A stretch of DNA of 64,000 bases from assembly GCA_030698565.1 (NCBI GenBank), contig JAUYJS010000005.1, positions 10,607 through 74,606 on the forward strand. Direction: 5' to 3'. The DNA comes from Candidatus Shapirobacteria bacterium. GTDB taxonomy: Bacteria; Patescibacteriota; Microgenomatia; UBA12405. Position 1 is the first letter of the stretch, and each line of letters starts with the position of its first letter. Below the pieces are notes generated by a model. It ran no database searches, was not told the DNA's origin, and saw nothing but the letters and a program-made list of their open reading frames with translations. Below are positions 12,429 to 60,760 of the stretch, piece by piece. Made by a program: the position numbers and the translations under genes.

Positions 12429-13413
12429 GTATTTGGCTAGATTTTAACATTTTTTGTATCTTTTGGCGTTTATTTAGTGTTGATGGTAAATTAAATATTA
12501 TTTCAAGTGTGATTAAAGTGAAATCTTTTAGAAAATATAGAAGTGCTTTGTTTCCATAACTTTTTTTTGTTTTTTTAAAAAGATAAGAAATATTTTTTAA
12601 TCTTTCGATTACTATTTGCGGAAAATTTTTAATTATTTGTTTTAAGGAATAATTTTTTATAATAATATAAATCCAGTTTTTAAGAACCATTTTGCTTCTG
12701 AAATTACCCAGAGAATTAGTGGTGCCACCGCCAAGATGATATGAAATAGCTTTGGGGATATATAGAGTTTTATAACCGAGATTGTGGAGCCTTAGCGATA
12801 TGTCCACATCTTCTTCATAGGCAAAAAAATCATCGTCAAAAAGACCTATTTTTATAAGTATGTCTTTTTTGTAAACTGTAAAAGCAGCAGAAGAACCCCA
12901 AGGAAAAATTTTTAATTTTAAATTTTTAATTTTTAAATCGTCATATGGTTGGCCGTCGGAAATGTTTTGACATTTGCCAGAATAATCAAACTCCAGGCCT
13001 TGGGATTCAAACTTATCCCCTTCTTTGTTTAAAACAGTGCCAAAAAAGACGGCGGTTTTGAGATCTTTTTCGTCTTGAATAGTTTGGCTTATTAACTTGA
13101 ACCAGTCAGGATTCATGGTTATATCATTATTTAGTAAAACGACATAATCATATTTAGCTTTTAAAATTCCTTGATTGACAGCTTTTGCAAAACCAAAGTT
13201 TTTGTTGTTTAAAATAATACTGGAGTAAAGACAAATTTCAGTGGCGAGCTCGTTGAAAATAGCAACACTATCGTCTTTTGAGTTGTTGTCTACAAGAATA
13301 ATTTCGAACTCATCTTCGGGATTATTAATTATTGATTGTTTTAAAGAAACTAAACAATAATTTAATAATTTAGCACCATTATAGTTTGGAATAATGATAG
13401 AGAATTTAGTCAT
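12412..13413 (-). CDS. Glycosyltransferase, GT2.
   Basis: FSIIIPNYNGAKLLNYCLVSL...ILVDNNSKDDS. Confidence 0.75.
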   Translation of the reverse strand: MTKFSIIIPNYNGAKLLNYCLVSLKQSIINNPEDEFEIILVDNNSKDDSVAIFNELATEICLYSSIILNNKNFGFAKAVNQGILKAKYDYVVLLNNDITMNPDWFKLISQTIQDEKDLKTAVFFGTVLNKEGDKFESQGLEFDYSGKCQNISDGQPYDDLKIKNLKLKIFPWGSSAAFTVYKKDILIKIGLFDDDFFAYEEDVDISLRLHNLGYKTLYIPKAISYHLGGGTTNSLGNFRSKMVLKNWIYIIIKNYSLKQIIKNFPQIVIERLKNISYLFKKTKKSYGNKALLYFLKDFTLITLEIIFNLPSTLNKRQKIQKMLKSSQIHDHRN

Positions 13414-13870
13414 TTAAATTTGGTAGCTCTATATGGTCTCCGATATGAAGACCTATTTTTTCAGAAATGCCCGGGTTTAGTTCAATAACATATTTGGCAG
13501 GCTCTGTATTTTTATAAATTTTTAGTTGATTGTTTGGGGTATTGGGTTCTGGAGAAGCGGTGGCAATATATACAACCTTTCCTTGACTATTAACCCAAAT
13601 TATATCCAAAGTAATTAATGTGTCTTTCATCCAAAATGATTGGATATCATCTTGGCTGAATAAAAAAATCATACCGCAATTGGAACATAATTCAGTTCTA
13701 TCACCTAAACCTTTGGCTTTTTGAGTTAATGTTTTGGCAACTTCTAAATTGAAATTTTTGTCTTTTATTTTGATAGAGATTGTCTTTGAGGGAGATCTTT
13801 GGGAAAATAAAAAAGAGGCAACGACCGCTAAAATTAGAAAAATTATTGTTGGAAGAATATATTTTGACAT
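13406..13870 (-). CDS. DUF192 (COG1430) domain protein with an N-terminal signal/anchor. Function unknown.
   Basis: KGLGDRTELCSNCGMIFLF...FWMKDTLITLDIIWVNSQGKVVYI matches the DUF192 pattern (GLM.R...GMLF.F...FWMKNT.IPLDI.F.D..G.V). Confidence 0.65.
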   Translation of the reverse strand: MSKYILPTIIFLILAVVASFLFSQRSPSKTISIKIKDKNFNLEVAKTLTQKAKGLGDRTELCSNCGMIFLFSQDDIQSFWMKDTLITLDIIWVNSQGKVVYIATASPEPNTPNNQLKIYKNTEPAKYVIELNPGISEKIGLHIGDHIELPNLND

Positions 13871-15099: not shown

Positions 15100-16017
15100 A
15101 TGTTTAAAAAAATTGCCTCTTCAAAGTTTCTTAGATTTGGAATTTCGGCAATTTTAGTTTATTTTGCTTTTAGAAATGTAAATGTATCTGTAATTATAAA
15201 GGAATTAATTCAAGTTCCCCTTTGGTTTATTTTAGTAAATTTATTATATTCATTACTAATTTCACTTATTGGCTCTTATCGTTGGAGTTTACTTCTATTT
15301 GACCGCCCAGGGAAAAGTGAAGTATTCAATTTTCTAAAATCAACTTATTTGGGGGCGTTTTATTCATTAGCATTTCCTACCGGATTAGCTGGTGACCTTT
15401 TAAAATGGTTTCCTTTACAAAAGAAATACCCCGAGTTAACCAAAACTAGGCTTTTAAGTTCGGTTTTATTGGATAGATTTATTGGTTTTTCCTCTTTTAC
15501 TATTTTGGCTTTGATTTCCGTAATAATTGGAAAAATATTAAAAATATCTTTTCCTGATTTTATTTTTTGGTTATTTTTGGGTCTATCTATTGGTGTTGTA
15601 TTTTTTTATATTGCAATTTTTAGCTTTGATGTGGAAAAAATAATAAAAAAGTATCCCATTTTAGAAAAGTTAAATGAGATTGTAAGTCTTTTGAAAAAGG
15701 GAAATAAAAGAAGGATAATTTTAAGTTTATTGGTTTCGTTTTTGAGCGAATTTACCTGGATTATCCAGACATGGTTTGTGTCTGATTTTTTTCATGCAGG
15801 GTTTAGTGTTATTTCTGTTTTTGTTTTTGTACCAATAATAGCTTTGGTTTTAGTGTTGCCAATTTCGTTTGCTGGTTTTGGAGCCAGGGAACAATTATAT
15901 TTATTTTTCTTTTCTCAAATAGGTATTGCTAGCGAAAAAACCCTTTTAGTTTCAACATTTTTAGGAATAACTGGAATTTTGTCTTCGTTAATCGGAGGAC
16001 TTTTTCTTTTGTTTTAA
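15100..16017 (+). CDS. Polytopic membrane protein of the lysylphosphatidylglycerol-synthase-TM / flippase-like family (PF03706-like).
   Basis: N-terminal RFGISAILVYFAFRNVNVSVIIKELIQVPLWFILVNLLYSLLISLIGSYRWSLLL resembles the conserved start of the flippase-like domain. About 8 TM helices. Confidence 0.5.
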   Translation: MFKKIASSKFLRFGISAILVYFAFRNVNVSVIIKELIQVPLWFILVNLLYSLLISLIGSYRWSLLLFDRPGKSEVFNFLKSTYLGAFYSLAFPTGLAGDLLKWFPLQKKYPELTKTRLLSSVLLDRFIGFSSFTILALISVIIGKILKISFPDFIFWLFLGLSIGVVFFYIAIFSFDVEKIIKKYPILEKLNEIVSLLKKGNKRRIILSLLVSFLSEFTWIIQTWFVSDFFHAGFSVISVFVFVPIIALVLVLPISFAGFGAREQLYLFFFSQIGIASEKTLLVSTFLGITGILSSLIGGLFLLF

Positions 16018-16071
16018 GTAAGCGATGATAAAATAGGAAAGTTAAAGTTAAAAATTTAAAATTAAAACGAA

Positions 16072-17040
16072 ATGATATTAATTGTTGGTGGGGCGGGATA
16101 TATTGGTTCACATATAAACAAGGAATTAAATAAGCAAGGATTTGAGACGGTAGTTTTTGATAATTTAGCGTCTGGTCGAAAAGAGCTGGTGAAATGGGGA
16201 GAATTGATAATTGGTGATTTGGGTAATATAGAAGAAATTAGAAACGTTTTTAAAAAATACAAAATTGATGCTGTGTTTCATTTTGCGGCTTTTAAGGCAG
16301 TTGGTGAATCGGTAACTAATCCTCAAAAATATTATAAAAATAATATCTGTAATACCCTAAACCTATTAGAAGTAATGTTGGAAAACGACGTTAAAAAGTT
16401 TATTTTTTCATCATCAGCAGCTGTTTTTGGTAGTCCCCAATACATGCCCATTGACGAGAAACATCCTCAAAATCCAATAAACCCTTATGGTGAAACTAAA
16501 TTAATTATGGAACATGTTTTGAGGGATTACTCAAAGGCTTATGGTTTGAAGTATGTGTCGTTGCGTTATTTTAATGCTTGTGGAGCTGATTTAGAAAGTG
16601 AGGTTGGTGAATGGCCAGGAAGTAGTGCTAACTTAATTCCTATGGTCTTAGACGCGGCTATTGGACGACGTGAAGATATAAAAATTTTTGGAACTGATTA
16701 TCCAACTAAGGACGGAACATGTATTCGGGATTATATTCATGTAACAGATTTGGCAGTAGCTCATATTTTGGCTTTTGAATATTTAAATAATGGTGGAGAA
16801 TCAGATTGTTTTAACTTGGGTAATGGGAGAGGTTTTTCAGTAAAAGAAGTGGTTGATATGGCAAAAGAAGTTACTAAAATTGATTTTAAAGTAGTTGAGT
16901 CTGACAAAAGAGAGGGTGATCCGGCGGTATTAGTGGCTGATAGTGCCAAGGCTCAAAAAGTATTGGGTTGGAAATCTGAATACGCTGATTTAAAAACTAT
17001 TATAGAGAGTGCTTGGAGTTGGCATTTGAAGAAGAGTTGA
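16072..17040 (+). CDS. galE: UDP-glucose 4-epimerase (SDR family).
   Basis: MILIVGGAGYIGSH (GxxGxxG), YGETK catalytic YxxxK motif, 322 aa. Confidence 0.85.
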   Translation: MILIVGGAGYIGSHINKELNKQGFETVVFDNLASGRKELVKWGELIIGDLGNIEEIRNVFKKYKIDAVFHFAAFKAVGESVTNPQKYYKNNICNTLNLLEVMLENDVKKFIFSSSAAVFGSPQYMPIDEKHPQNPINPYGETKLIMEHVLRDYSKAYGLKYVSLRYFNACGADLESEVGEWPGSSANLIPMVLDAAIGRREDIKIFGTDYPTKDGTCIRDYIHVTDLAVAHILAFEYLNNGGESDCFNLGNGRGFSVKEVVDMAKEVTKIDFKVVESDKREGDPAVLVADSAKAQKVLGWKSEYADLKTIIESAWSWHLKKS

Positions 17041-17095: not shown

Positions 17096-18163
17096 ATGGA
17101 AAAAATAAAGCGTTTTATTGAATGCTTAATTCCGATAACTGTCTGCAATTTAAGATGTAGTTATTGCTACGTAGCTCAAGAAAATGGAAAGACAAACAAA
17201 ATGCCTGAATTTCAATATGGTATAAAAACTATCGCCAAAGCTTTGTCAAAAAAACGTCTTGGTGGGTGTTCGTATATTAGTATTTGTGGGGCAGGAGAAA
17301 CACTTATGCCATTTGAAATTGTGGGTATTACACATTCACTTTTAGAAAACAGTCATTATGTTAACTTGACTAATAATGGAACTCAAACTGAACGAATTAA
17401 TCAAATTTTAGATGTTTCTTTAGAATATAGATCGCGTTTACATTTTGCCTTTTCATTTCATTATTTAGAGCTAAAAAAAAATAATTTATTAGATATCTTT
17501 TTTGAAAATATTAAAAAAGTGAAAGCTGCCGGATGTTCTTTTTTAGTTCAGTTTAATATGTGCGATGAATATGTTCCTTACCTAGATGAGATGTATGACA
17601 TTTGTATAAAGGAAGTTGGAGCTCCGCCTCAAATAGCTGTCACTAGAGATGTAACTAATCTAAAGGAAATTAAATTATTAACGGCCCTTTCAAAAGAGGA
17701 ATATAAAGAACTTGGGCGAAAGTTTGATTCTCCGCTCTTTGATTTTACTCTTCAAAATTTTATGGTAAAAAGGCAAGAGTACTGTTATGCAGGAAAATGG
17801 TCTGGCGTTTTAAACTTGGCTACTGGTGAACTACGACGCTGTTATAGTGATCCTTCTCCACAGAATATTTTTGCGGATACTTCAAAGCCGATTGTTTTTC
17901 AAGCGATGGGTAAATCTTGTGTTTTAGCTTATTGTATTAACTCTTCACATTTTATGTCATTAGGTGTAATTCCATTTAAAAGAAGTCCTACCTATGCCTC
18001 ACTTAGGAATAGACAAAGTGCTCAGTGGTATTCCGCAAAGATGCAAAAATTTCTTTCTGGAAAATTAATTTATTCAAATCTTAATCTAAGTTTCTGTTTT
18101 GATTTAGTTGCTCAAATAATAAATCGTATTTATAGAAAAAAAAGACTAACTGGATTGCACTAA
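17096..18163 (+). CDS. Radical SAM enzyme with a Cys-rich C-terminal region (SPASM/twitch-like auxiliary-cluster candidate).
   Basis: CNLRCSYCY (CX3CX2C) near the N-terminus and ICGAGETLM (GGEPLL-like SAM motif). C-terminal cysteines: CYAGKWSGVLNLATGELRRCY...GKSCVLAYCINSSHF. Confidence 0.7.
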   Translation: MEKIKRFIECLIPITVCNLRCSYCYVAQENGKTNKMPEFQYGIKTIAKALSKKRLGGCSYISICGAGETLMPFEIVGITHSLLENSHYVNLTNNGTQTERINQILDVSLEYRSRLHFAFSFHYLELKKNNLLDIFFENIKKVKAAGCSFLVQFNMCDEYVPYLDEMYDICIKEVGAPPQIAVTRDVTNLKEIKLLTALSKEEYKELGRKFDSPLFDFTLQNFMVKRQEYCYAGKWSGVLNLATGELRRCYSDPSPQNIFADTSKPIVFQAMGKSCVLAYCINSSHFMSLGVIPFKRSPTYASLRNRQSAQWYSAKMQKFLSGKLIYSNLNLSFCFDLVAQIINRIYRKKRLTGLH

Positions 18164-18208: not shown

Positions 18209-19543
18209 TTATCTTCCAATAGAAAAATAGTCAAAACCCATTTCTTTCATTTCAGATGGACGATATTGATTGCGACCATCAAAAATTATTGGATTTTTTA
18301 GGTGTTTTTTGATTAATTGAAAGTTCGGTTGTTTATAGATGTTCCATTCGGTTAAGAGTGCTAATGCGTCGCAATCTTTTAGACATTCATAGTTGTCGTC
18401 AAAATATTCAATACTGGTTTCGATATCTTTAAATAAGCGTTTGGCTTCGTTTTGGGCTTCGGGATCGTGGGCTTTAATTTTTGTTCCACCTTCGACCAAC
18501 TTTCGAATAATTACTTGAGATGGCGACTCGCGCATATCGTCGGTTTCTGGCTTGAAAGCTAATCCCCAGATAGCAATAGTTTTGCCTTTTAATCCGTCTT
18601 TTTTGTTATCAAAATAATTTTGAATTTTGTCGAATAAATGTGCTTTTTGGGTTTCGTTGATAAGTTCTACAGCTTTGAGTAGCTTCATGTCATAACCATA
18701 TTCATTGCCGGTGTTGATAATAGCTTTGACATCTTTGGGGAAACAGCTACCACCATAACCAATGCCAGGACTGATAAATGAATAGCCGATTCTTTTGTCG
18801 GCACCAACACCAAGTCGAACCATTTCTACGTTGGCATCAACCTTTTCACATAAATTTGAAATTTCGTTGATAAAGGAAATCTTGGTAGCCAACATCGAAT
18901 TTGAGGCATATTTAGTGACCTCTGCCGAACGGACATCCATAAATATGATTCTTGGTTCAGCATCTTTGAATAATCCTGAGTAAAGTTCATTCATTTGTTC
19001 TTTGGCCCGAATGCTTTCTGTCCCGATTATGACCCTGTCTGGATTCATGAAGTCCTCGATAGCGTTGCCTTCCCTTAAGAATTCTGGGTTGGAAACAATA
19101 TCGAAATCTACATTAATTCCTCTTTCCTTAATTTTTTGATCAATAAAATCTCTTAATTGTTTACCTGTACCAACTGGTACGGTTGATTTATTGATAATGA
19201 GTTTGTAGTCCTTTAAATTTTTTGCTATTTCTTCGGCGACCGCATAAACGTATTTTAAATCTACTGAACCATCAGGATTAGATGGAGTTCCAACAGCAAT
19301 AAAAATAAATTGAGACTGGTCAAATCCATCAAGCAAGTTGGTGGAAAAATGAAGTCTGCCTTCTTGAAAATTTTTATTGACTATTGGTTCTAGGCCTTTT
19401 TCATAAATAGGGATTATCCCCTGTTTAAGTTTGTCGATTTTTGTTTGGTCGACATCGACACACCAGACCTCGTTGCCTATATCAGCAAAACACGCGCCGG
19501 CGACTAATCCAACATATCCTGTACCGATAACGGTAATTTTCAT
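18209..19543 (-). CDS. ugd: UDP-glucose 6-dehydrogenase.
   Basis: MKITVIGTGYVGLVAGACFADIGNEV (Rossmann fold), catalytic GGSCFPKD, 444 aa. Confidence 0.9.
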   Translation of the reverse strand: MKITVIGTGYVGLVAGACFADIGNEVWCVDVDQTKIDKLKQGIIPIYEKGLEPIVNKNFQEGRLHFSTNLLDGFDQSQFIFIAVGTPSNPDGSVDLKYVYAVAEEIAKNLKDYKLIINKSTVPVGTGKQLRDFIDQKIKERGINVDFDIVSNPEFLREGNAIEDFMNPDRVIIGTESIRAKEQMNELYSGLFKDAEPRIIFMDVRSAEVTKYASNSMLATKISFINEISNLCEKVDANVEMVRLGVGADKRIGYSFISPGIGYGGSCFPKDVKAIINTGNEYGYDMKLLKAVELINETQKAHLFDKIQNYFDNKKDGLKGKTIAIWGLAFKPETDDMRESPSQVIIRKLVEGGTKIKAHDPEAQNEAKRLFKDIETSIEYFDDNYECLKDCDALALLTEWNIYKQPNFQLIKKHLKNPIIFDGRNQYRPSEMKEMGFDYFSIGR

Positions 19544-20639: not shown

Positions 20640-22538
20640 ATGAATAAAGAAATATTTATAACTGGTAGCAATGGATTTATCGGTCAATATTTGGTCAATT
20701 ATTTAAGTCAAAAAGGGTTTGTGGTTTATGCTTTATTGAGAAAAAAATCTATTCCTGGTTTTAATTTAAATAAAAATGTTGTGTGTATTATTGGTGATTT
20801 GTTGAATAAACCTTCATTAATAACCGGAATACCTAAAAATAGCATAGTTGTTAATCTGGCCGCAAATCCTTATCACCCAAAATTGAGTTATAAAGTAAAT
20901 GTTGAAGGTACACAAAATTTAATAGATGTGTGTAAAAAAAACAAAGTAAATAGAATTATTCATATTAGTAGTCAGGCAACTAAAATTGAGAATAAAGGTG
21001 TCTATGCTAAGACAAAAAATAAAAGTGATGAAATTATTAATAACTCTGGTTTAAATTACGTTATTTTAAAACCAAGTCTGGTTTATGGTGGGGGCGAAAA
21101 AGGTTTGTTTAATAAAATTAGAAGCTTGGTTAATAAAATTCCGTTGGTACCTATATTTGGTAGTGGTAAAACAAAGGTTAATCCCGTTTATGTTGAGGAT
21201 TTATGCAAGTTTATAGAACTAACAGCTTTAAACTCCAAAGATAAAAATTCTATATACGATGTCGGAAGTGTAAAACCGATTACTTACAATCAATTATATC
21301 GGGGAATAGTTGTGGGTATAGAAAAAAATATTTGGTTTTTACACATACCAATTTGGGTGGGAATTTTGTTTGGGAAATTATTTGAATTAGCTAAACTAGG
21401 AAATCCACCTTTTTTTATTGACAATGTTTTGGGTTCTACACAAGAAACAAACTGTAACCCAGGCCCAATTATAAAAAAATATAAATACGAGCCTTTAAGT
21501 TTTATGGAAGGTTTGAAATTGATAAATAAAAAACCTGCTGTTAATGTGGGGATGGTTGGTTTGGGAAAAATGGGATTATTACATTTATCTATTTTGAGTA
21601 GTTTTAGGGATGTAGATATAGTTGCTTTAATTGATACAAATAGAAAACTGTTTACCACTATAAAGAGTATGGGAGTAGCGGGAAATTTTTATGAAAATAT
21701 TGAAGAGGCCTTGAAAAATGAAGAAATTAATGCTGTTTTTGTGTTAACACCAACTTTTACACATTTGCCAATTATTAAAACTTTACTGAAAAAAAATATT
21801 AGTATTTTTGTGGAAAAACCAGCTACCTTAAACCAAGGTCAATTAGAAGAAATTACAAAACTTAAAACAAGTTATAAAGGAATATTTAATGTTGGTTATA
21901 CATTGCTTTTTAAGAGAATTTATCGAGAAATAAAAAATATAATTGATACAAAAAAATATGGGAAAATTAAGTCGTTTGAGATAAATTTCGAACACGGTGA
22001 AGTTTTTGGAAAGAGAAATGGTTGGATGTTTAGTAAAGAAAAATCCGGAGGAGGTGTTTTAATGAATCCCGGACCTCATGTATTTTCATTGATAAATTTA
22101 TTGTTTGGAAAACCGGAAAAAATAAGTGGAGATATATATAAAATATATTCTTTAGAGGTTGATGATGAGGCAAGGTTAAATTTAGACTATAAAGATTTTG
22201 AGGGTAAAGCCTTTTTGTCTTGGTCGGTTAAAAATAGAAATATTGCGACAACAACGATTAAAATTAATTTTGAAAAATCAGAACTAAATACTGATGGAAA
22301 TATAATTGAAATTATCCCAACTAATGGGAAAATGATTAAAATAAGCGAAAAAGACTCACCTGTTTTGCTTGATGGCACCTTGAATATAAATCCCGATGCT
22401 AATGGTGAAGCGTATTATATTGAAGATAGATTGTTTGTTGATTCAGTAAAGGATAAAAAGGATGCGAATATAAATAATTTTGAGTTTGCGTATGATACGG
22501 AAAGTATGATATTTAAAAGTTATTTGAAATCAAAATGA
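20640..22538 (+). CDS. Fusion protein: N-terminal NAD-dependent epimerase/dehydratase (SDR) and C-terminal Gfo/Idh/MocA-family oxidoreductase.
   Basis: N-domain IFITGSNGFIGQYLVNYL with YAKTK. At about residue 300: VNVGMVGLGKMGLLHLSIL, a second Rossmann fold, and FVEKPATL (the EKP motif of Gfo/Idh/MocA). Confidence 0.7.
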   Translation: MNKEIFITGSNGFIGQYLVNYLSQKGFVVYALLRKKSIPGFNLNKNVVCIIGDLLNKPSLITGIPKNSIVVNLAANPYHPKLSYKVNVEGTQNLIDVCKKNKVNRIIHISSQATKIENKGVYAKTKNKSDEIINNSGLNYVILKPSLVYGGGEKGLFNKIRSLVNKIPLVPIFGSGKTKVNPVYVEDLCKFIELTALNSKDKNSIYDVGSVKPITYNQLYRGIVVGIEKNIWFLHIPIWVGILFGKLFELAKLGNPPFFIDNVLGSTQETNCNPGPIIKKYKYEPLSFMEGLKLINKKPAVNVGMVGLGKMGLLHLSILSSFRDVDIVALIDTNRKLFTTIKSMGVAGNFYENIEEALKNEEINAVFVLTPTFTHLPIIKTLLKKNISIFVEKPATLNQGQLEEITKLKTSYKGIFNVGYTLLFKRIYREIKNIIDTKKYGKIKSFEINFEHGEVFGKRNGWMFSKEKSGGGVLMNPGPHVFSLINLLFGKPEKISGDIYKIYSLEVDDEARLNLDYKDFEGKAFLSWSVKNRNIATTTIKINFEKSELNTDGNIIEIIPTNGKMIKISEKDSPVLLDGTLNINPDANGEAYYIEDRLFVDSVKDKKDANINNFEFAYDTESMIFKSYLKSK

Positions 22539-27489: not shown

Positions 27490-27491
27490 AA

Positions 27492-28487
27492 TTACTTCTT
27501 TGAATATATTCCAAAAAATGTTTCTGGTTTTAAAATATTGTTTTCCAGATAGTACTTATCTAAGTTAACAATAAAGTCGAAGATTGATCGGTCTAGTGCT
27601 TGTCTTAGATCAAAATTGGGGCCAAATTTGGTGTCGAAAAATCTGCGACAAAGCGAAAAGGCTGGGATGTAATAAACCTCATTTAAGTGTTTTCTTAGGG
27701 ACGGAAGTATGGCTTCAGAATTGATACATTCAAATGAATTAATGGAATAATCGACATTCTCATAAGTTTCGGCGTAAACAGGATCGGCGTGTTTAGTATA
27801 ATCAATTTTAAATTTAGGAGGTAATATTTTCCAGATATTATTAACAACTTTAAATGTTTCGTCCCACATTAAATAACCATTTTTAGTTGGAATGTCTACG
27901 GTTACAAAAATACCACCTGGTTTTAAACTTTTATTAATTTCTTTACAGATATGATCAAGTTTAAGAAAGTGATGTAGTGAGGCGTGGGCAAGAATGACAT
28001 CATATTTATTTTCAGGAAGGGAGATTTTATTTACGTCTTGAGTGATAGCATTAAACTTTATATTTTGTTTTTTAGCTTCGTTTTCGCCTTGTTTTAGGGC
28101 TGATTCATTTATATCGACACAAGATAACTCCAGTTCAGTGCCGTTCTTTTTGAGAAGTGGGGCAATTCCTAGAAGTTCTAAACCACATGCTCCTGATCCT
28201 AGACCTAATAATTTAATTTTTTTCTTATTTTTTGTGTGTCGACTAATATATTCATTTAGACTTGAAACACCGGTTTTTTTTTTGATATTTTCCACAAAAT
28301 GGATATCGGTGTCAGTCCAAACTGGTGGAACATCTTGAAATAATTTATCTTTAAAAATATTTTTATAATGTTCTATTTCCCCTTCCATTTTTTGAGAATA
28401 ATTTTTATTATTCTCTTTTCGCTTTTTATCTGACAATTGGTTGGTTAAGGATTTGAACAATTTTTTCAGACGAGTCACCTGTTCCAT
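27492..28487 (-). CDS. Class I SAM-dependent methyltransferase.
   Basis: LLGLGSGACGLELL, VILAHASLHHF, LKPGGIFV. The true start is probably an internal Met (MEGEIEHY), which would reduce the 62-bp overlap with wecB. Confidence 0.75.
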   Translation of the reverse strand: MEQVTRLKKLFKSLTNQLSDKKRKENNKNYSQKMEGEIEHYKNIFKDKLFQDVPPVWTDTDIHFVENIKKKTGVSSLNEYISRHTKNKKKIKLLGLGSGACGLELLGIAPLLKKNGTELELSCVDINESALKQGENEAKKQNIKFNAITQDVNKISLPENKYDVILAHASLHHFLKLDHICKEINKSLKPGGIFVTVDIPTKNGYLMWDETFKVVNNIWKILPPKFKIDYTKHADPVYAETYENVDYSINSFECINSEAILPSLRKHLNEVYYIPAFSLCRRFFDTKFGPNFDLRQALDRSIFDFIVNLDKYYLENNILKPETFFGIYSKK

Positions 28488-29538
28488 AGGGATTGTTTGA
28501 TTTTGAAATTTTTAAATAATGTTTTTTATTTTCTAAAACATCTTTTATATTTTTATATATTTTATCTTTTTTAGTGCCTACTAAAATTAGTGTCCCTGCC
28601 TTAATCCCCTCTTGTCTTTCAGTTTCGTCTCTTAAAACCAGGACTGGTTTGTGAAATGTAGGAGCTTCTTCTTGAAGTCCTCCAGAATCGGTAGCAACCA
28701 AGAAGCATTGACTCATTAATTTAACCATATCTGTGTAAATTAATGGCTTAGTTAAATATATTCTATTATGGTTACTTAGTATTTTTTTGGCAATGTCTTG
28801 AATAAGTGGATTTAGATGAACGGAAAAAATTACTTGAGTGTCGGGGTAATCAATAATTATATTTTTTATAGCTTGAAAAATATCTTTCATGGGTTTGCCA
28901 ATAGATTCGCGGCGATGACAAGTTAGGAGAATAGTTTTTTTACTAAAATCTATGGTTTTTAATATTGGTTCTTGATAACCAATATTTTTTTGAGCAATAA
29001 ATTTAATGGCATCGATGACAGTATTGCCTGTAACAAAAATATTATCCTTTATATTTTCTTTTAATAAGTTATTTTTATTGTTTTGAGTTGGACAAAAATA
29101 AATATTGGATAATTTATCTACAAGTTGACGATTAATTTCTTCGGGGAATGGGTTTTGATTGTCGTATGTTCTTAACCCTGCTTCAATATGACCAATGGGG
29201 ATGTGTAGGTAAAATCCTGCTAAGGCAGAAACAAATGCAGTGGTGGTGTCACCGTGGACTAAAATTAAATCCGGTTTTTCGGTTTCAAATATTTTTTGAA
29301 TCTTTGATAATACTTTTTGGGTAATATCGAAAAGTGTTTGGTTTTGAGTCATAATATCCAGATCATAATCTGGTTTTATATTAAAAATGTCCAAGACTTG
29401 GTCGAGCATTTCTCGGTGTTGGGCGGTAGCAACTACAATTGTTTGAATTTTGGTTTTTCTTAAAGCCATAATAATTGGAGCCATCTTTATAGCTTCGGGT
29501 CGAGTACCAAAAACACAGATTATTTTTTTGTATTTCAT
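28426..29538 (-). CDS. wecB: UDP-N-acetylglucosamine 2-epimerase (non-hydrolysing).
   Basis: KIICVFGTRPEAIKMAPII, HIEAGLRT, 370 aa. Confidence 0.85.
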   Translation of the reverse strand: MKYKKIICVFGTRPEAIKMAPIIMALRKTKIQTIVVATAQHREMLDQVLDIFNIKPDYDLDIMTQNQTLFDITQKVLSKIQKIFETEKPDLILVHGDTTTAFVSALAGFYLHIPIGHIEAGLRTYDNQNPFPEEINRQLVDKLSNIYFCPTQNNKNNLLKENIKDNIFVTGNTVIDAIKFIAQKNIGYQEPILKTIDFSKKTILLTCHRRESIGKPMKDIFQAIKNIIIDYPDTQVIFSVHLNPLIQDIAKKILSNHNRIYLTKPLIYTDMVKLMSQCFLVATDSGGLQEEAPTFHKPVLVLRDETERQEGIKAGTLILVGTKKDKIYKNIKDVLENKKHYLKISKSNNPYGTGDSSEKIVQILNQPIVR

Positions 29539-32676: not shown

Positions 32677-32744
32677 AATTTTCGGTATTTAAGTTAAAAT
32701 AGTATATCGTTTTTTATTATTTATTGGTTGATTAAATTTACCGT

Positions 32745-33998
32745 TTAGTTAAAGATTAGGTTTTTATAAAACTTATTATCGAGAGTGGAAAATTGTTTGT
32801 TTATATCTGTTATATATTTTTTTTCCTTATCTATATTTTTTAAAATCCTTTCGGTTTTATTTTTAAGTTCATTAAAAATGTTTTTGTTATTTAGATTTAT
32901 ACTGTAATCAGAGTACTTTTCGGAATAATAAAAATTTAAAGCACCAATATTTTTTTGTGAGTAATATTCGTCTGAAATGAATGTCATACAGGGGACGTTT
33001 TCTGATAATGAGAAGACAATACCGTGATATCTTGATGAAAAAACTAAATCACAAGTGGATGTAAGCGTCTTACTAATCTGAGCTATTTCATAATTTGTTT
33101 GCGTATAAAAATTTATATCTAGTCCAAGAACAATAATAGAATTCTTCAATTTTTTTGTAATTTTTGACATATATATTACATCTCCATAACTTTCAAATTC
33201 ATTTGTCGCTATAATGTGTGGAATCAATAATATTTCTATAGAGTACTTCTTAGATATTTGTTGTATAAGACGTACCAAATTGCTTACTAGAATTTCGTTA
33301 TAATTTTTCCATTGATGTATACTAATTCCAATTCTGATTTTTGATTGTCGAGCAATATTTATATTTTTATTTTTTATTGTAGGTAAAGAATGGGCTGCGT
33401 CAAGTGTTTTTCCTATGTTGGGTAGTATTATTCCATATTTTAATAGAGAATTATTGGGTTCACGAATATTTATTACTTTGACTAAATTTAGGACAAAAAA
33501 AGAAATAACCTTATCAGTAAAATTAAAAGGACCAATTGTTTGACTGGTTAGAAATATTTTCTTTCCTAATATTTTAGCTATTACAATTAAAGAATAAGAA
33601 TAAAAAAGCCATGGTTTAAAAAGACTGGTTAAATTACCACCTCCACAAAAATGAATTATGTCTTGTTCTCTTATAATATTTATAAACTCAAACTCATTTT
33701 TTGATAAAAAGTTTGTTTTTGAAAATTTATATAATAAAAATTTTAAAATGAGTTTCAAAAAATATATTCTTGGCTTTTCATTATTGAAATCAAAATTTAA
33801 TAATTCTGTAACTTTTAAATTTTGATGATTTTTTTTACTAGTAAAGATACTGAGATTTGTACTTTTATGATTTTTTTGATACCAATAGTAGGTTTCCAAA
33901 AACATTGCCTCATCACCTATATGATAAAAACCATTGTTGGCTGTTCCAATATTGGCAAAAAGTAATATTTTCATGTTGTATAATAAAAATGATATCAA
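32745..33998 (-). CDS. Polysaccharide pyruvyl transferase (CsaB/WcaK-like, PS_pyruv_trans) candidate.
   Basis: N-terminal MKILLFANIGTANNGFYHIGDEAMF resembles the G.N.GDEA signature at the start of pyruvyl transferases. The call is moderate only. Confidence 0.45.
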   Translation of the reverse strand: MISFLLYNMKILLFANIGTANNGFYHIGDEAMFLETYYWYQKNHKSTNLSIFTSKKNHQNLKVTELLNFDFNNEKPRIYFLKLILKFLLYKFSKTNFLSKNEFEFINIIREQDIIHFCGGGNLTSLFKPWLFYSYSLIVIAKILGKKIFLTSQTIGPFNFTDKVISFFVLNLVKVINIREPNNSLLKYGIILPNIGKTLDAAHSLPTIKNKNINIARQSKIRIGISIHQWKNYNEILVSNLVRLIQQISKKYSIEILLIPHIIATNEFESYGDVIYMSKITKKLKNSIIVLGLDINFYTQTNYEIAQISKTLTSTCDLVFSSRYHGIVFSLSENVPCMTFISDEYYSQKNIGALNFYYSEKYSDYSINLNNKNIFNELKNKTERILKNIDKEKKYITDINKQFSTLDNKFYKNLIFN

Positions 33999-33999
33999 A

Positions 34000-34008
34000 A
34001 GTATGCTT
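34000..34008 (+). promoter_or_regulatory. TTGTATAAT promoter-like element in the divergent intergenic region, 27 nt upstream of the 34036 start.
   Basis: Same TTGTATAA core as at 17048 and 37082. Confidence 0.35.
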
Positions 34009-34035
34009 GAAAATTATACCTTAATAACGAGTTGA

Positions 34036-34935
34036 ATGAAAAAAACTAAAAAATTAATAATGACCTTATTGGTTAGAGATGAAGATGATATTTTAGAAAA
34101 AAATATAATATTTCATTTAAATCAAGGAGTTGACCATATTGTTGTTACTGATAATGACTCTGTTGATGGAACCAGGGATATCTTAGAAAAGTATAAGAAG
34201 AAGGGTGTGTTGTCTTATGTAATTGAAAGTAAGCATACGTACGAACAAGATGTGTGGGTGTCTAATATGGCTAAAAATGCCATTCGTAACTATGATGCTG
34301 ATTATGTTTTACATTGTGATGCGGATGAATTTTGGTTATCTGACGTGGGCGATTTAAAAAGTATAATATTTAAAGAAAGTTCTGATATTTTACATGTACC
34401 AGTAATTAATTATTTGCCGCCAAAAGACACTAATATAGATGGCTTTAACTTCGATAATTATAATTATATTGTTTCTTTAACAAGAGGTTGTCCTGGAGTA
34501 CTTAAAGATAGAATCAGTAGTGATTTGTTGTTATACACTTATCCAGAAAAAATAATTACTTCAAAAAAGATAGTAGATATTGGTTACGGTAACGATTCGG
34601 CTACATTTAATGGTGAGATAGAAGAAAAACATACCGATAAAATTCATATTCATCATTTTCCAATAAGAAATTGGAATCAGTTTGAAAGAAAAGTCTTTAA
34701 TGGCGGAAGTTCATATAAAAATAATCCAATAAAAAATCCAAGTATAGGTTGGCATTGGAAATCATGGTTTAGGATATACAAAAATGGTGGGTTATATAAG
34801 GAGTATGAAAAGATATCGCTAAAATATGATTTTTCTAATTATCTAGAAAACGGAATAGTAAAATATAGTTCTGTGCCTTTTAAAATTAAATATGCAGATA
34901 TTTTAAGGAAATTACACTTAACTTTTAAATTCTAG
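34036..34935 (+). CDS. Putative GT-A-like glycosyltransferase (GT2-like/GT92-like).
   Basis: LVRDEDDILEKNIIFHLNQGVDHIVVTDNDSVDGTRDIL is a DXD-containing nucleotide-binding start. The family is uncertain. Confidence 0.4.
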   Translation: MKKTKKLIMTLLVRDEDDILEKNIIFHLNQGVDHIVVTDNDSVDGTRDILEKYKKKGVLSYVIESKHTYEQDVWVSNMAKNAIRNYDADYVLHCDADEFWLSDVGDLKSIIFKESSDILHVPVINYLPPKDTNIDGFNFDNYNYIVSLTRGCPGVLKDRISSDLLLYTYPEKIITSKKIVDIGYGNDSATFNGEIEEKHTDKIHIHHFPIRNWNQFERKVFNGGSSYKNNPIKNPSIGWHWKSWFRIYKNGGLYKEYEKISLKYDFSNYLENGIVKYSSVPFKIKYADILRKLHLTFKF

Positions 34936-35668
34936 GTATTTTGTTTTTGATATAAATATTTGTTATTTTTTCAGGTTTACCGATTGCTTGGAGTTGTCCA
35001 TTTTTCAGAAATATGGCTTTTGTACAAAAAGATTTTATTTGTTCTTGCGAGTGGGATACAAATAGAATTGTTACTCCTTGTTGCTTAAACTCTTCCATTT
35101 TTTTGAAACATTTTGCTTGAAACGCGGTGTCGCCGACAGCGAGGATTTCGTCGACAATTAATATTTCCGGATTGACGTGGATAGCGACGGCAAAAGCTAA
35201 GCGCATATACATGCCAGAAGAATAGTGCTTGACTGGTTGATCGATAAATTCCCATAATTCGGCAAAATCGACAATGCTTTTAAATTTTTCGTCAATTTCT
35301 TTTTTCTTTAATCCCAAAATAGCACCATTTAAATACACATTTTCGTAGCCTGTTAATTCTGGATGCATGCCAGCACCTAGCTCGATTAGAGGTGAAATTT
35401 TACCTCTAACTATGACCTTGCCTGTTGTGGGCCACATGACACCGGCGACTAACTTTAGAATAGTTGATTTACCTGAACCGTTTGGCCCAATAATACCTAG
35501 AGTTTCTCCTTTGTTAACTTTGAAACTGATATTGGATAATGCTTTGAAGGCTTGTTTGGTTTCTTTGCCACTAAATAAGGCCGGTAAAAATTCTTTAAAA
35601 GTTTTTTGACTTAGTTTACTGAATTCTTTGGTAACGTTTTGGAATTCGATTATTGGTTCGTTTGACAT
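34925..35668 (-). CDS. wzt: ABC transporter ATP-binding protein of the polysaccharide/teichoic-acid exporter type (Wzt/TagH/KpsT-like).
   Basis: Walker A GIIGPNGSGKST, signature YSSGMYMRLAFAVA (the SSGM..RLAFA variant typical of Wzt/TagH), Walker B ILIVDE. Confidence 0.85.
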   Translation of the reverse strand: MSNEPIIEFQNVTKEFSKLSQKTFKEFLPALFSGKETKQAFKALSNISFKVNKGETLGIIGPNGSGKSTILKLVAGVMWPTTGKVIVRGKISPLIELGAGMHPELTGYENVYLNGAILGLKKKEIDEKFKSIVDFAELWEFIDQPVKHYSSGMYMRLAFAVAIHVNPEILIVDEILAVGDTAFQAKCFKKMEEFKQQGVTILFVSHSQEQIKSFCTKAIFLKNGQLQAIGKPEKITNIYIKNKIPRI

Positions 35669-35726
35669 TGATTTGTTTTATTATATAATTGCTTTATCAC
35701 GATGAGAGGACTACCAAAGGGCAATC

Positions 35727-36248: not shown

Positions 36249-36260
36249 TTTTTGTATGTT

Positions 36261-37061
36261 TTAGACATTATCGGCAAATATTTTTTCTTTATTTTTAAAG
36301 TATGCCAGGCCTAAAAATAAAGTTACTAGAGATAAAAGTAAACCGATACCTAGACTATTTATATTTGGTGATCCCCCGCCTAGCACTGTTTGTCGATAGG
36401 CGTTAACTATAACACTCATTGGATTTAGCTGGAAGAAAATTTTGAAACGTTCGGGTACAATATCGACTGGATAAATTATGGGGGTTATGTATAACCATAA
36501 AGTTAGTAGAAGAGCCAATAGATATTGAATGTCTCGGTATAAAAGATTGGCGGCAGCAAAGAAAAGTGATAAACCCAAAGTAAAAATTTGTTGAATTAAA
36601 AATATAGGAATTACCCAAAGAATATTTAGGTTTATAGAAATTTTAAAATAAATCATGTATATAAGTAGAATACTTAAAGCAAATAAAAAATCGATTATTT
36701 TTGCAACAACAGTAGAAATTACTAAAATAGTTCTTGGAAAATAAATCTTTGTTATTAAACTAGAAGAACCGACCAAGGCATTGCTGGCAGAGGAAAGTGA
36801 GGTGGAGAAAAGATTCCAAGGCAAAAGTGCTACGAAAAGGAAAACAGAATAAGGAATATGGCTACTAGCGTTTGTGGGAATACGTAAGATAACTGAAAAG
36901 GCAAAGCTCATTACAAGCATTTGAGCTAAAGGATTTAAAATTACCCAAAAATAACCTAATACAGATTGTTTGTAGCGGGCCTTGACTTCTCTGCCAACCA
37001 TTTGCCAAAGTAGTTCTTTCCATTTAATTATGTCCCTAATCTCAGTTACTATTTGGAGCAT
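36261..37061 (-). CDS. wzm: ABC-2 type transporter permease (Wzm/TagG/KpsM-like).
   Basis: 266 aa with 6 TM helices. The N-terminal LWQMVGREVKARYKQSVLGYFWVILNP is typical of ABC-2 permeases. Confidence 0.75.
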   Translation of the reverse strand: MLQIVTEIRDIIKWKELLWQMVGREVKARYKQSVLGYFWVILNPLAQMLVMSFAFSVILRIPTNASSHIPYSVFLFVALLPWNLFSTSLSSASNALVGSSSLITKIYFPRTILVISTVVAKIIDFLFALSILLIYMIYFKISINLNILWVIPIFLIQQIFTLGLSLFFAAANLLYRDIQYLLALLLTLWLYITPIIYPVDIVPERFKIFFQLNPMSVIVNAYRQTVLGGGSPNINSLGIGLLLSLVTLFLGLAYFKNKEKIFADNV

Positions 37062-37081
37062 GAGCTTATTATAACTTATTA

Positions 37082-37090
37082 TTGTATAAT
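37082..37090 (+). promoter_or_regulatory. TTGTATAAT promoter-like element 11 nt upstream of the YvcK-like gene start, in the divergent region with wzm.
   Basis: Same TTGTATAA core. Intergenic 37062-37101. Confidence 0.35.
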
Positions 37091-37101
37091 TCGTTTTATA
37101 T

Positions 37102-38079: not shown

Positions 38080-38085
38080 GTATTT

Positions 38086-60757: not shown

Positions 60758-60760
60758 CTT

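What the first reader, a model, noticed from the sequence alone, without database searches (positions are those of the whole stretch)
17096..18163. Radical SAM enzyme with a Cys-rich C-terminus between galE and ugd
A 355-aa protein with an N-terminal CX3CX2C (CNLRCSYCY), a GGE-type SAM motif and five or more C-terminal cysteines (CYAGKWSG...RRCY...GKSCVLAYC) sits as the last gene of the plus-strand run flippase-like, galE, radical SAM. Those cysteines suggest an auxiliary Fe-S cluster of the SPASM/twitch type. Radical SAM enzymes that act on nucleotide sugars are rare but known (radical epimerases, dehydratases, C-methylases). No precursor-peptide-like small ORF is evident nearby, so a sugar or lipid substrate is more likely than a RiPP.
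Basis: partly seen in the sequence, partly recalled or inferred. Interest (0 to 1): 0.6.

Follow-up and report, generated by a model that had tools for sequence, protein, structure and literature searches.

The report
Radical SAM partner of glycan pyruvyltransferases
This gene encodes a real iron-sulfur radical enzyme from a widespread uncharacterised family that almost always sits beside, or is fused to, the enzyme that adds pyruvate to surface sugars, so it probably makes an undescribed sugar decoration in anaerobic bacteria.

Summary
The ORF at 17096-18163 (+) is real. It is identical to NCBI MDP4009642.1, 'radical SAM protein', from a Candidatus Shapirobacteria MAG.

It has CX3CX2C (aa 17-24) and a GxGE SAM motif (aa 64-69). 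Four C-terminal cysteines (C230, C249, C275, C280) are kept in at least 246 of 247 family members. C230-x13-G-x4-C249 fits the SPASM/twitch signature, but there is no CX2CX5CX3C block and no SPASM profile hit. This points to a twitch-like domain with a single auxiliary cluster.

- In 46 of 54 distinct loci from other genomes, a PS_pyruv_trans (Pvg1/CsaB-type) gene is the immediate neighbour, and in 51 of 54 it lies within three genes.
- Twenty of the 150 best cluster representatives are rSAM::pyruvyltransferase fusions, in both domain orders.
- galE and ugd are not conserved neighbours.
- In this window the partner lies 14.6 kb away (32745-33998, -). In the two closest homologues it is adjacent.

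Best reading: a glycan-tailoring radical SAM enzyme that works with a PEP-dependent pyruvyltransferase. The chemistry is unknown and I found no literature on it. It is not a RiPP maturase.

The parts
17096..18163 (+). Radical SAM enzyme gene (355 aa), member of an unnamed glycan-cluster rSAM family
17144..17167 (+). CX3CX2C motif (C17, C21, C24) that would bind the SAM-cleaving [4Fe-4S] cluster
   Evidence: Invariant in the 117-sequence alignment. Present in 240-241 of 247 family members; the rest are gaps.
17285..17302 (+). C64-G-A-G-E-T69, the GGE-type SAM-binding motif at the end of predicted beta-2
   Evidence: G67, E68 and T69 are invariant. C64 is kept in 226 of 247 members. Strand E59-65 is seen in the model.
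17783..17935 (+). Twitch-like C-terminal Cys region: C230-x13-G244-x4-C249, then C275-x4-C280 followed by NSSHF. Putative ligands of one auxiliary Fe-S cluster.
   Evidence: C230 in 246/247, C249 in 246/247, C275 in 247/247, C280 in 247/247. A beta-hairpin (E236-240, E245-247) lies between C230 and C249 in the model. Cluster binding itself is inferred, not shown.
18083..18151 (+). C-terminal basic amphipathic helix (aa 330-352), a possible in-plane membrane anchor
   Evidence: Helix H331-352 in the AF2 model. It has the highest hydrophobic moment of any 18-residue window in the protein. The membrane role is inferred.
32745..33998 (-). PS_pyruv_trans (Pvg1/CsaB-type, PEP-dependent polysaccharide pyruvyltransferase), the inferred functional partner, unlinked in this genome
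   Evidence: PF04230, 58.3 bits against a cutoff of 25.3. Weak CsaB hit. Its orthologues (46% and 33% identity) lie directly beside the rSAM orthologues in L004 and L005. It is the only such gene in the window.
34925..35668 (-). Wzt-like ABC ATPase of the glycan exporter that flanks the rSAM/pyruvyltransferase pair in the closest relatives
   Evidence: PF00005. 70% and 59% identical orthologues lie next to the rSAM gene in L004 and L005.
36261..37061 (-). Wzm-like ABC-2 permease of the same exporter
   Evidence: PF01061. Orthologues are present in L004 and L005. The same pair lies upstream of the rSAM gene in L040 and of the fusion gene in L063.
28426..29538 (-). UDP-GlcNAc 2-epimerase (makes UDP-ManNAc). 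Its counterpart is the other immediate neighbour of the rSAM gene in L004.
   Evidence: PF02350 E=2.6e-119. L004 9916-10986 is its best match.
15100..17040 (+). Co-directional upstream genes in this window: an LPG_synthase_TM/flippase-like gene (15100-16017) and galE (16072-17040). They are local operon mates, not conserved partners.
   Evidence: A galE-like gene lies within 5 genes in only 3 of 54 loci.
18209..19543 (-). UDP-glucose 6-dehydrogenase (ugd), convergent neighbour, not a conserved partner
   Evidence: PF03721, PF00984 and PF03720. A ugd-like gene lies within 5 genes in 6 of 54 loci.

Best explanation
The gene encodes a radical SAM enzyme with one twitch-like auxiliary Fe-S cluster. 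It is one half of a conserved two-enzyme glycan-tailoring module. The other half is a PEP-dependent polysaccharide pyruvyltransferase of the Pvg1/CsaB type (PF04230), which here is the gene at 32745-33998.

Proposed mechanism:
1. The transferase places a pyruvate-derived unit (a 1-carboxyethylidene ketal or its enolpyruvyl/phospholactoyl precursor) on a sugar of a lipid-linked, ABC-exported surface glycan at the cytoplasmic face of the membrane.
2. The rSAM enzyme reductively cleaves SAM. The resulting 5'-deoxyadenosyl radical abstracts a hydrogen from the pyruvate-derived group, most plausibly its unactivated methyl, or from the carbon next to it.
3. The fully Cys-ligated auxiliary cluster passes one electron, and the group is converted into a different substituent.

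What is shown:
- rSAM identity, the conserved four-Cys C-terminal motif and the twitch/SPASM-clade fold.
- The glycan context.
- Near-obligate adjacency and fusion to pyruvyltransferases.
- That the partner is a true Pvg1-like enzyme.

What is inferred:
- That the substrate is the pyruvylated sugar rather than its precursor.
- That the substrate is lipid-linked.
- The role of the auxiliary cluster.
- The product.

Candidate products, in my order of preference, none above about 0.2:
- BlsE-like radical decarboxylation of the ketal carboxylate.
- PolH-like C-C cyclisation onto an enolpyruvyl ether.
- Ring-opening to a 1-carboxyethyl (lactyl) ether.
For: rSAM identity and the Cys motif:
-. One search shows C230, C249, C275 and C280 kept in at least 246 of 247 members.

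Fold:
- AF2 pLDDT 95.7.
- BlsE acts on a sugar carboxylate and was reported with 6.8 Fe per monomer.

Coupling to the pyruvyltransferase:
- A PS_pyruv_trans gene is the immediate neighbour in 46 of 54 distinct loci, on the same strand in 45, and on either side. Many pairs overlap by 4-8 bp. It lies within 3 genes in 51 of 54 loci.
- Under random placement in a cluster of about 17 genes, binomial P is about 3e-35.
- Twenty of the 150 best 50%-identity cluster representatives are rSAM::pyruvyltransferase fusions, in both domain orders. One was verified as a single ORF on its contig.

Window-specific evidence:
- In the closest homologues, L004 (72% identity) and L005 (69%), the rSAM gene lies directly beside the orthologue of window 32745-33998 and the Wzm/Wzt orthologues. 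Window 24062-39828 is colinear with L004.

Partner identity:
- A profile of 41 partner proteins hits Pvg1 (5AX7) at E=7e-51. It keeps the GGGN.GD and TDRLH motifs.

Constant substrate:
- The rSAM enzymes are far more conserved than their partners: mean pairwise identity 52% against 27%, Mantel r=0.40, with 0 of 2000 permutations reaching it. This fits an rSAM that recognises the constant pyruvate-derived part while the transferases adapt to different acceptors.

Other evidence:
- Other fusions of the family are all to glycan-tailoring domains: GT2, GT-D, FkbM methyltransferase, SGNH, NodB.
- All the source organisms come from anaerobic or gut/sediment habitats.
Against: - In this window the two genes are 14.6 kb apart and on opposite strands. 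The rSAM gene sits in a run with a flippase-like gene and galE, so in this genome it could have been recruited to another task.
- L040 has no pyruvyltransferase within 10 kb. Many family members are fused to domains other than a pyruvyltransferase.
- Adjacency and fusion do not give the order of the two reactions or the substrate.
- No biochemical data exist for any member.
- Four cysteines could bind a structural Zn instead of an Fe-S cluster.
- Characterised pyruvyltransferases (Pvg1, CsaB, WcfO) need no radical partner.
Confidence: 0.55

Rival explanations
1. The rSAM enzyme acts before the transferase. It remodels the acceptor sugar by BtrN/DesII/AprD4-style oxidation, deoxygenation or epimerisation of a sugar carbon, creating the diol geometry or keto-sugar that the pyruvyltransferase then caps.
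For: - The twitch-type relatives BtrN, SpeY, DesII and AprD4 act directly on sugar or cyclitol carbons and all appear among the structural hits.
- A four-Cys auxiliary cluster is typical of rSAM dehydrogenases (established knowledge of BtrN and anSME).
- Adjacency and fusions are equally compatible with this order of reactions.
Against: - The rSAM enzymes are much more conserved (52% mean identity) than the transferases (27%), although the acceptor glycans and glycosyltransferase sets differ widely between loci. An enzyme that recognises variable sugars would be expected to diverge as the transferases do.
- Activated sugar C-H bonds are normally handled by cheap NAD-dependent SDR enzymes.
Confidence: 0.2
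2. The rSAM enzyme makes a modified small-molecule donor, a PEP- or pyruvate-derived compound. The PS_pyruv_trans homologue then transfers it in place of plain enolpyruvate.
For: - High cross-phylum conservation of the rSAM enzyme would fit a universal small substrate.
- Fusion in both domain orders is compatible with channelling.
- TYW1, which uses pyruvate, is a weak sequence and fold hit.
Against: - The partner retains the Pvg1 PEP-binding motifs.
- No extra genes for donor activation are conserved in the loci.
- The amphipathic C-terminal helix suggests action at the membrane.
- There is no precedent.
Confidence: 0.08
3. One reading: a nucleotide-sugar enzyme working with GalE and Ugd, for example a BlsE-like radical decarboxylase or epimerase acting on UDP-glucuronate or UDP-galacturonate.
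For: - The gene lies between galE and ugd in this window.
- The best structural match, BlsE, decarboxylates a glucuronic acid nucleoside.
Against: - ugd-like and galE-like genes lie within 5 genes in only 6 and 3 of 54 loci.
- The closest homologues, L004 and L005, lack them next to the rSAM gene.
- Identity to BlsE is 12%, and the fold similarity (TM about 0.6) is at clade level only.
Confidence: 0.07
4. The rSAM enzyme is a protein maturase, as anSME is for sulfatases. It would post-translationally modify the pyruvyltransferase or another cluster protein.
For: - anSME, SkfB, SuiB and PqqE, which act on proteins or peptides, are among the top structural neighbours.
- Tight pairing and fusion with a single protein partner.
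Against: - Characterised pyruvyltransferases need no maturation (Pvg1 structure 5AX7; review PMC6801904 does not contain the word 'radical').
- The partners are only about 27% identical, and apart from the Gly run and the PEP-binding R-x-H only D200 and K349 are invariant, so there is no obvious conserved modification target.
- The family is also fused to unrelated tailoring domains.
Confidence: 0.04
5. RiPP maturase acting on a small precursor peptide.
For: Weak N-terminal NCBIfam hits to RiPP rSAM maturases. Fold neighbours include RiPP maturases.
Against: - There is no room for a precursor ORF next to the gene.
- Every locus examined is a glycan cluster.
- There is no SPASM or RRE domain.
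Confidence: 0.01

Closest known systems
BlsE (cytosylglucuronate decarboxylase, blasticidin S pathway; PDB 7VOB)
   Different: Identity is only 12%, with no significant sequence match. BlsE's proposed second-cluster motif is CxCxxC near the C-terminus, not C-x18-C-x25-C-x4-C. BlsE is a nucleoside-antibiotic enzyme with no pyruvyltransferase partner.
Twitch-domain radical SAM enzymes (BtrN, SpeY, MoaA, SkfB)
   Same: They share a CX9-15GX4C-type motif on a beta-hairpin after the partial TIM barrel, with further Cys completing one auxiliary cluster. All appear among the structural hits.
   Different: There are no profile hits to SPASM or twitch models. The spacing of the last two Cys (CX4C followed by NSSHF) and the partner enzyme are specific to this family. 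The substrate class, a pyruvylated glycan, is inferred and unprecedented.
PolH/NikJ with PolA/NikO (octosyl acid formation in polyoxin/nikkomycin biosynthesis)
   Same: It is the only characterised pathway I know of in which a PEP-dependent enolpyruvyl transfer to a sugar hydroxyl is followed by a radical SAM step on that group: 3'-enolpyruvyl-UMP to octosyl acid phosphate (PMC5365060). This is a working analogy for the module.
   Different: PolH has its CX3CX2C at residue 225 and contains one cluster, so the architecture differs. The transferase there is MurA-like, not PF04230. The substrate is a nucleotide, not a glycan.
Polysaccharide pyruvyltransferases Pvg1 / CsaB / WcfO (for the partner gene)
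   Same: The partner profile hits Pvg1 at E=7e-51 and keeps the GGGN.GD and TDRLH motifs. The window copy hits PF04230 and, weakly, CsaB. The UDP-GlcNAc 2-epimerase and ABC exporter context in L004 and the window resembles CsaB-type cell-wall polymer pathways.
   Different: None of the characterised members has or needs a radical SAM partner. The 2019 review of glycan pyruvylation does not mention one.
STM4011 family radical SAM protein (NCBIfam NF038073)
   Same: It is the best NCBIfam hit, and the match spans both the core and the C-terminal region (aa 14-280 onto positions 9-251 of 278).
   Different: The score is 29.4 bits against a cutoff of 200, so this protein is not a member. STM4011 is itself uncharacterised.

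Membership tests
Radical SAM superfamily (PF04055) | CX3CX2C motif with an aromatic residue before the third Cys | tested here: met
   C17-NLR-C21-SY-C24. Invariant in 117 sequences, and kept in 240-241 of 247 with the rest gaps.
Radical SAM superfamily (PF04055) | Profile match at or above the Pfam gathering score | tested here: inconclusive
   29.2 bits against a cutoff of 29.5, E=1.2e-6, for the window protein. Family members score 29-50 bits.
Radical SAM superfamily (PF04055) | GGE SAM-binding motif and a partial TIM-barrel fold | tested here: met
SPASM domain rSAM (PF13186 / TIGR04085) | Seven-Cys motif CX9-15GX4C ... CX2CX5CX3C ... C binding two auxiliary clusters | tested here: not met
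   Only the first element is present (C230-x13-G-x4-C249). The rest is C275-x4-C280, giving four conserved Cys in total.
SPASM domain rSAM (PF13186 / TIGR04085) | Profile hit to PF13186 or TIGR04085 | tested here: not met
   There is no Pfam hit other than PF04055 at E<=1. TIGR04085 is not among the 25 NCBIfam families shown, and any unlisted hit would have E>0.078.
Twitch-domain rSAM (BtrN/MoaA/SkfB type) | CX9-15GX4C on a beta-hairpin directly after the rSAM core, with further Cys completing a single auxiliary cluster | tested here: met
   The motif is met. A hairpin (E236-240, E245-247) lies between C230 and C249 in the model. C275 and C280 are invariant.
Twitch-domain rSAM (BtrN/MoaA/SkfB type) | The four Cys actually bind an Fe-S cluster (geometry, Fe content) | not testable with these tools
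   Model coordinates are not returned, so S-S distances could not be measured. Fe/S analysis and EPR are needed.
BlsE-type sugar-acid decarboxylase | Significant sequence similarity, or shared active-site and second-cluster motif, with BlsE | tested here: not met
   BlsE is absent from PDB sequence searches even at E<=10. Identity in the structural alignment is 12%. BlsE's motif is C317xC319xxC322.
STM4011 family (NF038073) | Score at or above the curated cutoff (200 bits) | tested here: not met
   29.4 bits.
RiPP-maturing radical SAM enzymes | Co-occurring precursor peptide, an RRE domain, or a peptide-maturation context | tested here: not met
   The flanking gaps are 55 and 45 bp. All loci examined are glycan clusters. 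No RRE or SPASM hits.
PolH/NikJ octosyl-acid synthase | PolH architecture (N-terminal extension, CX3CX2C near residue 225) with a MurA-like enolpyruvyl transferase partner | tested here: not met
   CX3CX2C is at residue 17 here, and the partner belongs to PF04230. The analogy is mechanistic only.
Polysaccharide pyruvyltransferase PF04230 (partner gene 32745-33998) | Profile hit above the cutoff and retention of the Pvg1 PEP-binding R-L-H motif | tested here: met
   58.3 bits against a cutoff of 25.3. The partner-family profile hits Pvg1 5AX7 at E=7e-51, with R323 and H325 invariant within TDRLH. That these residues bind PEP is from my recollection of the Pvg1 structure paper.

The most novel reading that the evidence does not exclude
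A radical SAM plus pyruvyltransferase module, found across anaerobic Firmicutes, Bacteroidota, Synergistota and CPR bacteria, installs a chemically new pyruvate-derived substituent on surface glycans. Candidates are a decarboxylated acetal, a C-C-bridged bicyclic sugar acid, or a radical-made lactyl ether. This would be the first radical SAM chemistry on a glycan pyruvate group and a new class of glycan decoration in gut commensals.
Probability: 0.4. Interest if true: 0.8.

Novelty: new variant of a known kind. Interest (0 to 1): 0.62.

Why it matters
Pyruvate ketals on surface glycans serve as anchors for S-layer proteins, as immune epitopes and as phage receptors. Their biosynthesis is thought to need only a PEP-dependent transferase.

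This family is large: 333 50%-identity clusters at E<=1e-30. It is highly conserved, found in anaerobes, and almost always adjacent or fused to those transferases. That implies an undescribed second, radical step. It therefore implies an undescribed glycan substituent in many gut and rumen Clostridia, Bacteroidales and CPR bacteria.

The prediction can be tested directly, because cultured carriers and natural single-polypeptide fusions both exist. Success would add a new reaction type to radical SAM enzymology. It would also give a function to a family currently annotated only as 'radical SAM protein'.

Tried and rejected
- **SPASM assignment.** No PF13186 or TIGR04085 hit and no CX2CX5CX3C block. 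Rejected in favour of a one-cluster twitch-like domain.
- **RiPP maturase.** Rejected on context.
- **galE/ugd as functional partners.** They are not conserved neighbours.
- **PDB sequence searches.** Searches with the protein and with a 117-sequence profile gave only weak N-terminal hits: AbmM 8wm2 at E=0.0046 and TYW1 2yx0 at E=0.049. These were uninformative.
- **hhalign comparison.** The family profile against the SPASM rSAM protein of L004 aligned only the CX3CX2C region, with probability 2.9%. Uninformative.
- **afdb50 fold library.** Unavailable.
- **Literature.** Five searches on radical SAM with pyruvyl, pyruvyltransferase, capsule or O-antigen found no paper on such a pairing. The STM4011 search found one unrelated paper. 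'BlsE twitch' found nothing relevant.
- **Neighbour clustering.** Single-linkage clustering merged glycosyltransferases with pyruvyltransferases through fusion proteins. I replaced it with a dedicated HMM.
- **Auxiliary-cluster geometry.** It could not be measured because model coordinates are not exposed.
- **Terminator between the convergent genes.** No intrinsic terminator was seen between the rSAM gene and ugd.
Full report
**Observation**

The ORF at 17096-18163 (+) exists as described: 355 aa with an ATG start. It carries CNLRCSYCY at aa 17-25 and a GGE-type motif, C64-GAGET. Cysteines lie at 10, 17, 21, 24, 58, 64, 147, 156, 170, 230, 249, 275, 280 and 334.

It is the last gene of a plus-strand run:
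- an LPG_synthase_TM/flippase-like gene at 15100-16017;
- galE at 16072-17040 (TIGR01179, 457 bits against a cutoff of 262);
- the rSAM gene.

ugd (18209-19543, -) is convergent on it. The flanking gaps of 55 and 45 bp leave no room for a precursor ORF.

The protein is identical to NCBI MDP4009642.1, 'radical SAM protein [Candidatus Shapirobacteria bacterium]', on a 232-kb contig. PF04055 matches at E=1.2e-6, 29.2 bits, just under the 29.5 gathering score. No other Pfam domain matches at E<=1. The best NCBIfam hit is the uncharacterised STM4011 family, at 29 bits against a cutoff of 200.

**The family**

The word-indexed search found 1063 homologues. The best 120 are 52-72% identical, 316-391 aa long, and all named only 'radical SAM protein'. 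A profile search of 1.84 billion cluster representatives found 1284 at E<=1e-3 and 333 at E<=1e-30.

In a 117-sequence alignment the invariant cysteines are C10, C17, C21, C24, C230, C249, C275 and C280. Across 247 near-full-length members, including the divergent representatives:
- C230 and C249 are kept in 246;
- C275 and C280 are kept in all 247;
- C64 is kept in 226, and C10 in only 170.

C230-x13-G244-x4-C249 fits the CX9-15GX4C signature of SPASM/twitch domains. It is followed by C275-x4-C280-x-NSSHF rather than by CX2CX5CX3C. The sequence therefore argues for one auxiliary cluster with four Cys ligands (twitch-like), not a two-cluster SPASM domain.

**Structure**

AF2 run on the 117-sequence alignment gave pLDDT 95.7 and pTM 0.93. 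The model shows a beta-hairpin (236-240, 245-247) between C230 and C249, and a long C-terminal helix at 331-352.

So the protein belongs to the SPASM/twitch structural clade but has no close solved relative. PDB sequence searches give only weak N-terminal hits. BlsE was reported with 6.8 Fe per monomer and a proposed C-terminal second-cluster motif (PMC3715490).

I could not measure the Cys geometry, because coordinates are not exposed.

**Context: the main result**

The first three homologue loci all had a PS_pyruv_trans (PF04230) gene next to the rSAM gene. I then fetched 58 loci from one-genome-per-species contigs, using rSAM peptide patterns only. I called ORFs and searched them with an HMM built from four PF04230 seeds.

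Among 54 loci with distinct rSAM sequences:

| Position of the pyruvyltransferase gene | Loci |
|---|---|
| Immediate neighbour | 46 |
| 2-3 ORFs away | 5 |
| 13 genes (14.6 kb) away, opposite strand (this window) | 1 |
| Absent from the fetched region | 2 |

- Of the 46 immediate neighbours, 45 are on the same strand, 26 downstream and 19 upstream. Gaps run from -76 to +188 bp, and many pairs overlap by 4 or 8 bp.
- Two of the five '2-3 ORFs away' cases are separated only by spurious small ORFs.
- Of the two loci with no pyruvyltransferase, L031 is cut at the contig edge. L040 has a Wzm/Wzt exporter upstream instead.
- Random placement in clusters of about 17 genes gives P of about 3e-35 for this adjacency.
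- By contrast, ugd-like and galE-like genes lie within five genes in only 6 and 3 loci.

Fusions give independent support. Twenty of the 150 best 50%-identity cluster representatives are fusions of this rSAM domain with a PF04230 domain. Both orders occur: rSAM-pyruvyltransferase, and GT2-pyruvyltransferase-rSAM. One of them, P0122, was confirmed as a single ORF on its contig, directly after ABC2_membrane and ABC_tran genes. Other fusion partners are GT2, GT-D, FkbM and class-I methyltransferases, SGNH/GDSL, NodB, and a recurrent domain of about 125 aa that is weakly PglD_N-like. All are glycan-tailoring modules.

**This window**

The two closest homologues are L004 (72% identical) and L005 (69%), both from unclassified MAGs. 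In both, the rSAM gene lies directly beside the orthologue of window 32745-33998 (46% and 33% identity) and beside orthologues of the window's Wzt (34925-35668) and Wzm (36261-37061). Window 24062-39828 is colinear with L004 1-15346, except that the rSAM gene is missing from it.

The simplest reading is that the rSAM gene was relocated about 15 kb within the same glycan supercluster. It most likely still works with the gene at 32745-33998, the only PF04230 gene in the window. L004 also places a UDP-GlcNAc 2-epimerase next to the pair (window 28426-29538). This resembles CsaB-type pathways for pyruvylated ManNAc cell-wall polymers.

**The partner is a true pyruvyltransferase**

A profile of 41 partner proteins hits S. 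pombe Pvg1 (5AX7) at E=7e-51 over the whole domain. It keeps the GGGN.GD and TDRLH motifs; R323, H325, K349 and D200 are invariant.

The partners are as similar to Pvg1 as they are to each other, with a mean pairwise identity of 27%. The rSAM proteins average 52%. Their distance matrices correlate at Mantel r 0.40, and 0 of 2000 permutations reach that value.

I infer that the rSAM enzyme recognises something constant, namely the pyruvate-derived group. The transferases meanwhile diverge with their acceptor sugars.

**Mechanism**

What is shown:
- an rSAM core;
- a conserved four-Cys twitch-like motif;
- a fold in the twitch/SPASM clade;
- a glycan context;
- near-obligate coupling to a Pvg1-type transferase.

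What is inferred:
1. The transferase installs the pyruvate unit on a lipid-linked intermediate at the membrane. The most amphipathic segment of the rSAM protein is its basic C-terminal helix.
2. 5'-dA radical then abstracts a hydrogen from the pyruvate-derived group or an adjacent carbon. The ketal methyl is the only unactivated C-H that would justify radical chemistry.
3. The auxiliary cluster passes an electron.

Candidate outcomes:
- BlsE-like decarboxylation of the ketal carboxylate.
- PolH-like C-C cyclisation onto an enolpyruvyl ether. The precedent is PolA/PolH, which convert 3'-enolpyruvyl-UMP to octosyl acid phosphate (PMC5365060).
- Ring-opening to a lactyl ether.

None of these can be chosen from sequence alone.

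The rivals are given with their scores in the rival explanations:
- the rSAM enzyme acts first, on the acceptor sugar;
- it makes a modified donor;
- it acts on UDP-uronates with GalE and Ugd;
- it matures the transferase;
- it is a RiPP maturase.

**Comparison with what is known, and novelty**

The protein fails the membership tests for SPASM, BlsE, STM4011, PolH and RiPP maturases. It meets the sequence and topology criteria of a twitch-type rSAM enzyme.

I found no paper describing a radical SAM partner for polysaccharide pyruvyltransferases. The 2019 review of glycan pyruvylation does not contain the word 'radical' (PMC6801904). The held library is incomplete, so absence there is not proof.

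I rate this a new variant of a known kind: a twitch-type rSAM enzyme with an unprecedented partner and an inferred new substrate class. All source organisms come from anaerobic, gut or sediment settings, which fits an oxygen-sensitive enzyme.

**Limits**

- No biochemistry exists for any member of the family.
- Cluster binding, the order of the two reactions and the product are all inferences.
- In this genome the two genes are unlinked.

Noticed in passing
window 44599-45999 (-) and 48922-50415 (-): Two B12-binding radical SAM genes (PF02310 + PF04055) lie among GT2 and methyltransferase genes of the same glycan supercluster. They are probably class-B rSAM enzymes that modify sugars. With the gene under study, that makes three rSAM enzymes in one CPR glycan region.
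   Followed up: partly
window 54197-62530 (-), plus 62564-63838: A tandem array of five GT-C/PMT_2-like membrane glycosyltransferase paralogues (541-589 aa, 26-33% identical to one another, apart from the 59057-60757 copy, which gave no BLASTP hit to the other four) is followed by a shorter, weakly related ORF.
   Followed up: partly
window 35727-36248 (-): A NYN-domain (RNase-like) gene is inserted between the Wzt and Wzm exporter genes. The colinear locus L004 has no gene there.
   Followed up: no
window 37102-39828 (+); L004 12633-15346: A CofD-family gene (2-phospho-L-lactate transferase/YvcK-like) is followed by a 580-aa TPR protein. The pair is conserved next to the exporter in both the window and L004 (58% and 56% identity). 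Its role in the glycan pathway is unknown.
   Followed up: no
window 20640-22538 (+): This gene is an unusual fusion of an SDR epimerase/dehydratase domain with a GFO/IDH/MocA oxidoreductase (632 aa). It follows a GT2 gene and a DUF2304 gene, an arrangement reminiscent of polyprenyl-phosphate sugar modification cassettes.
   Followed up: no
window 24062-27489 (-); L004 24-3430: A DUF2079 membrane protein plus a 657-aa protein with no Pfam hit here (annotated DUF8201 in L004) form a pair conserved between the two CPR loci.
   Followed up: no
L004 17111-19658 (-): The closest relative's cluster also carries a B12-binding rSAM gene next to an rSAM/SPASM gene and a hexapeptide acyltransferase. This is another uncharacterised rSAM pair in a CPR glycan locus.
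   Followed up: no
L054 10159-13001 and L055 4598-6960: Two tandem paralogues of the rSAM gene precede a single pyruvyltransferase gene in Pygmaiobacter massiliensis and in a Lachnospiraceae genome.
   Followed up: no
family-level (P0180, P0193, P0196 and others; P0141, P0257): A recurrent domain of about 125 aa is fused to the rSAM enzyme in many cluster representatives, at either the N- or the C-terminus (41 extension segments cluster together). It looks Rossmann-like and is weakly PglD_N-like. It is absent from the window protein.
   Followed up: partly
window 13406-13870 (-): A DUF192 (COG1430) gene lies between GT2 and GT4 genes of the minus-strand glycan operon. Its function there is unknown.
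   Followed up: no
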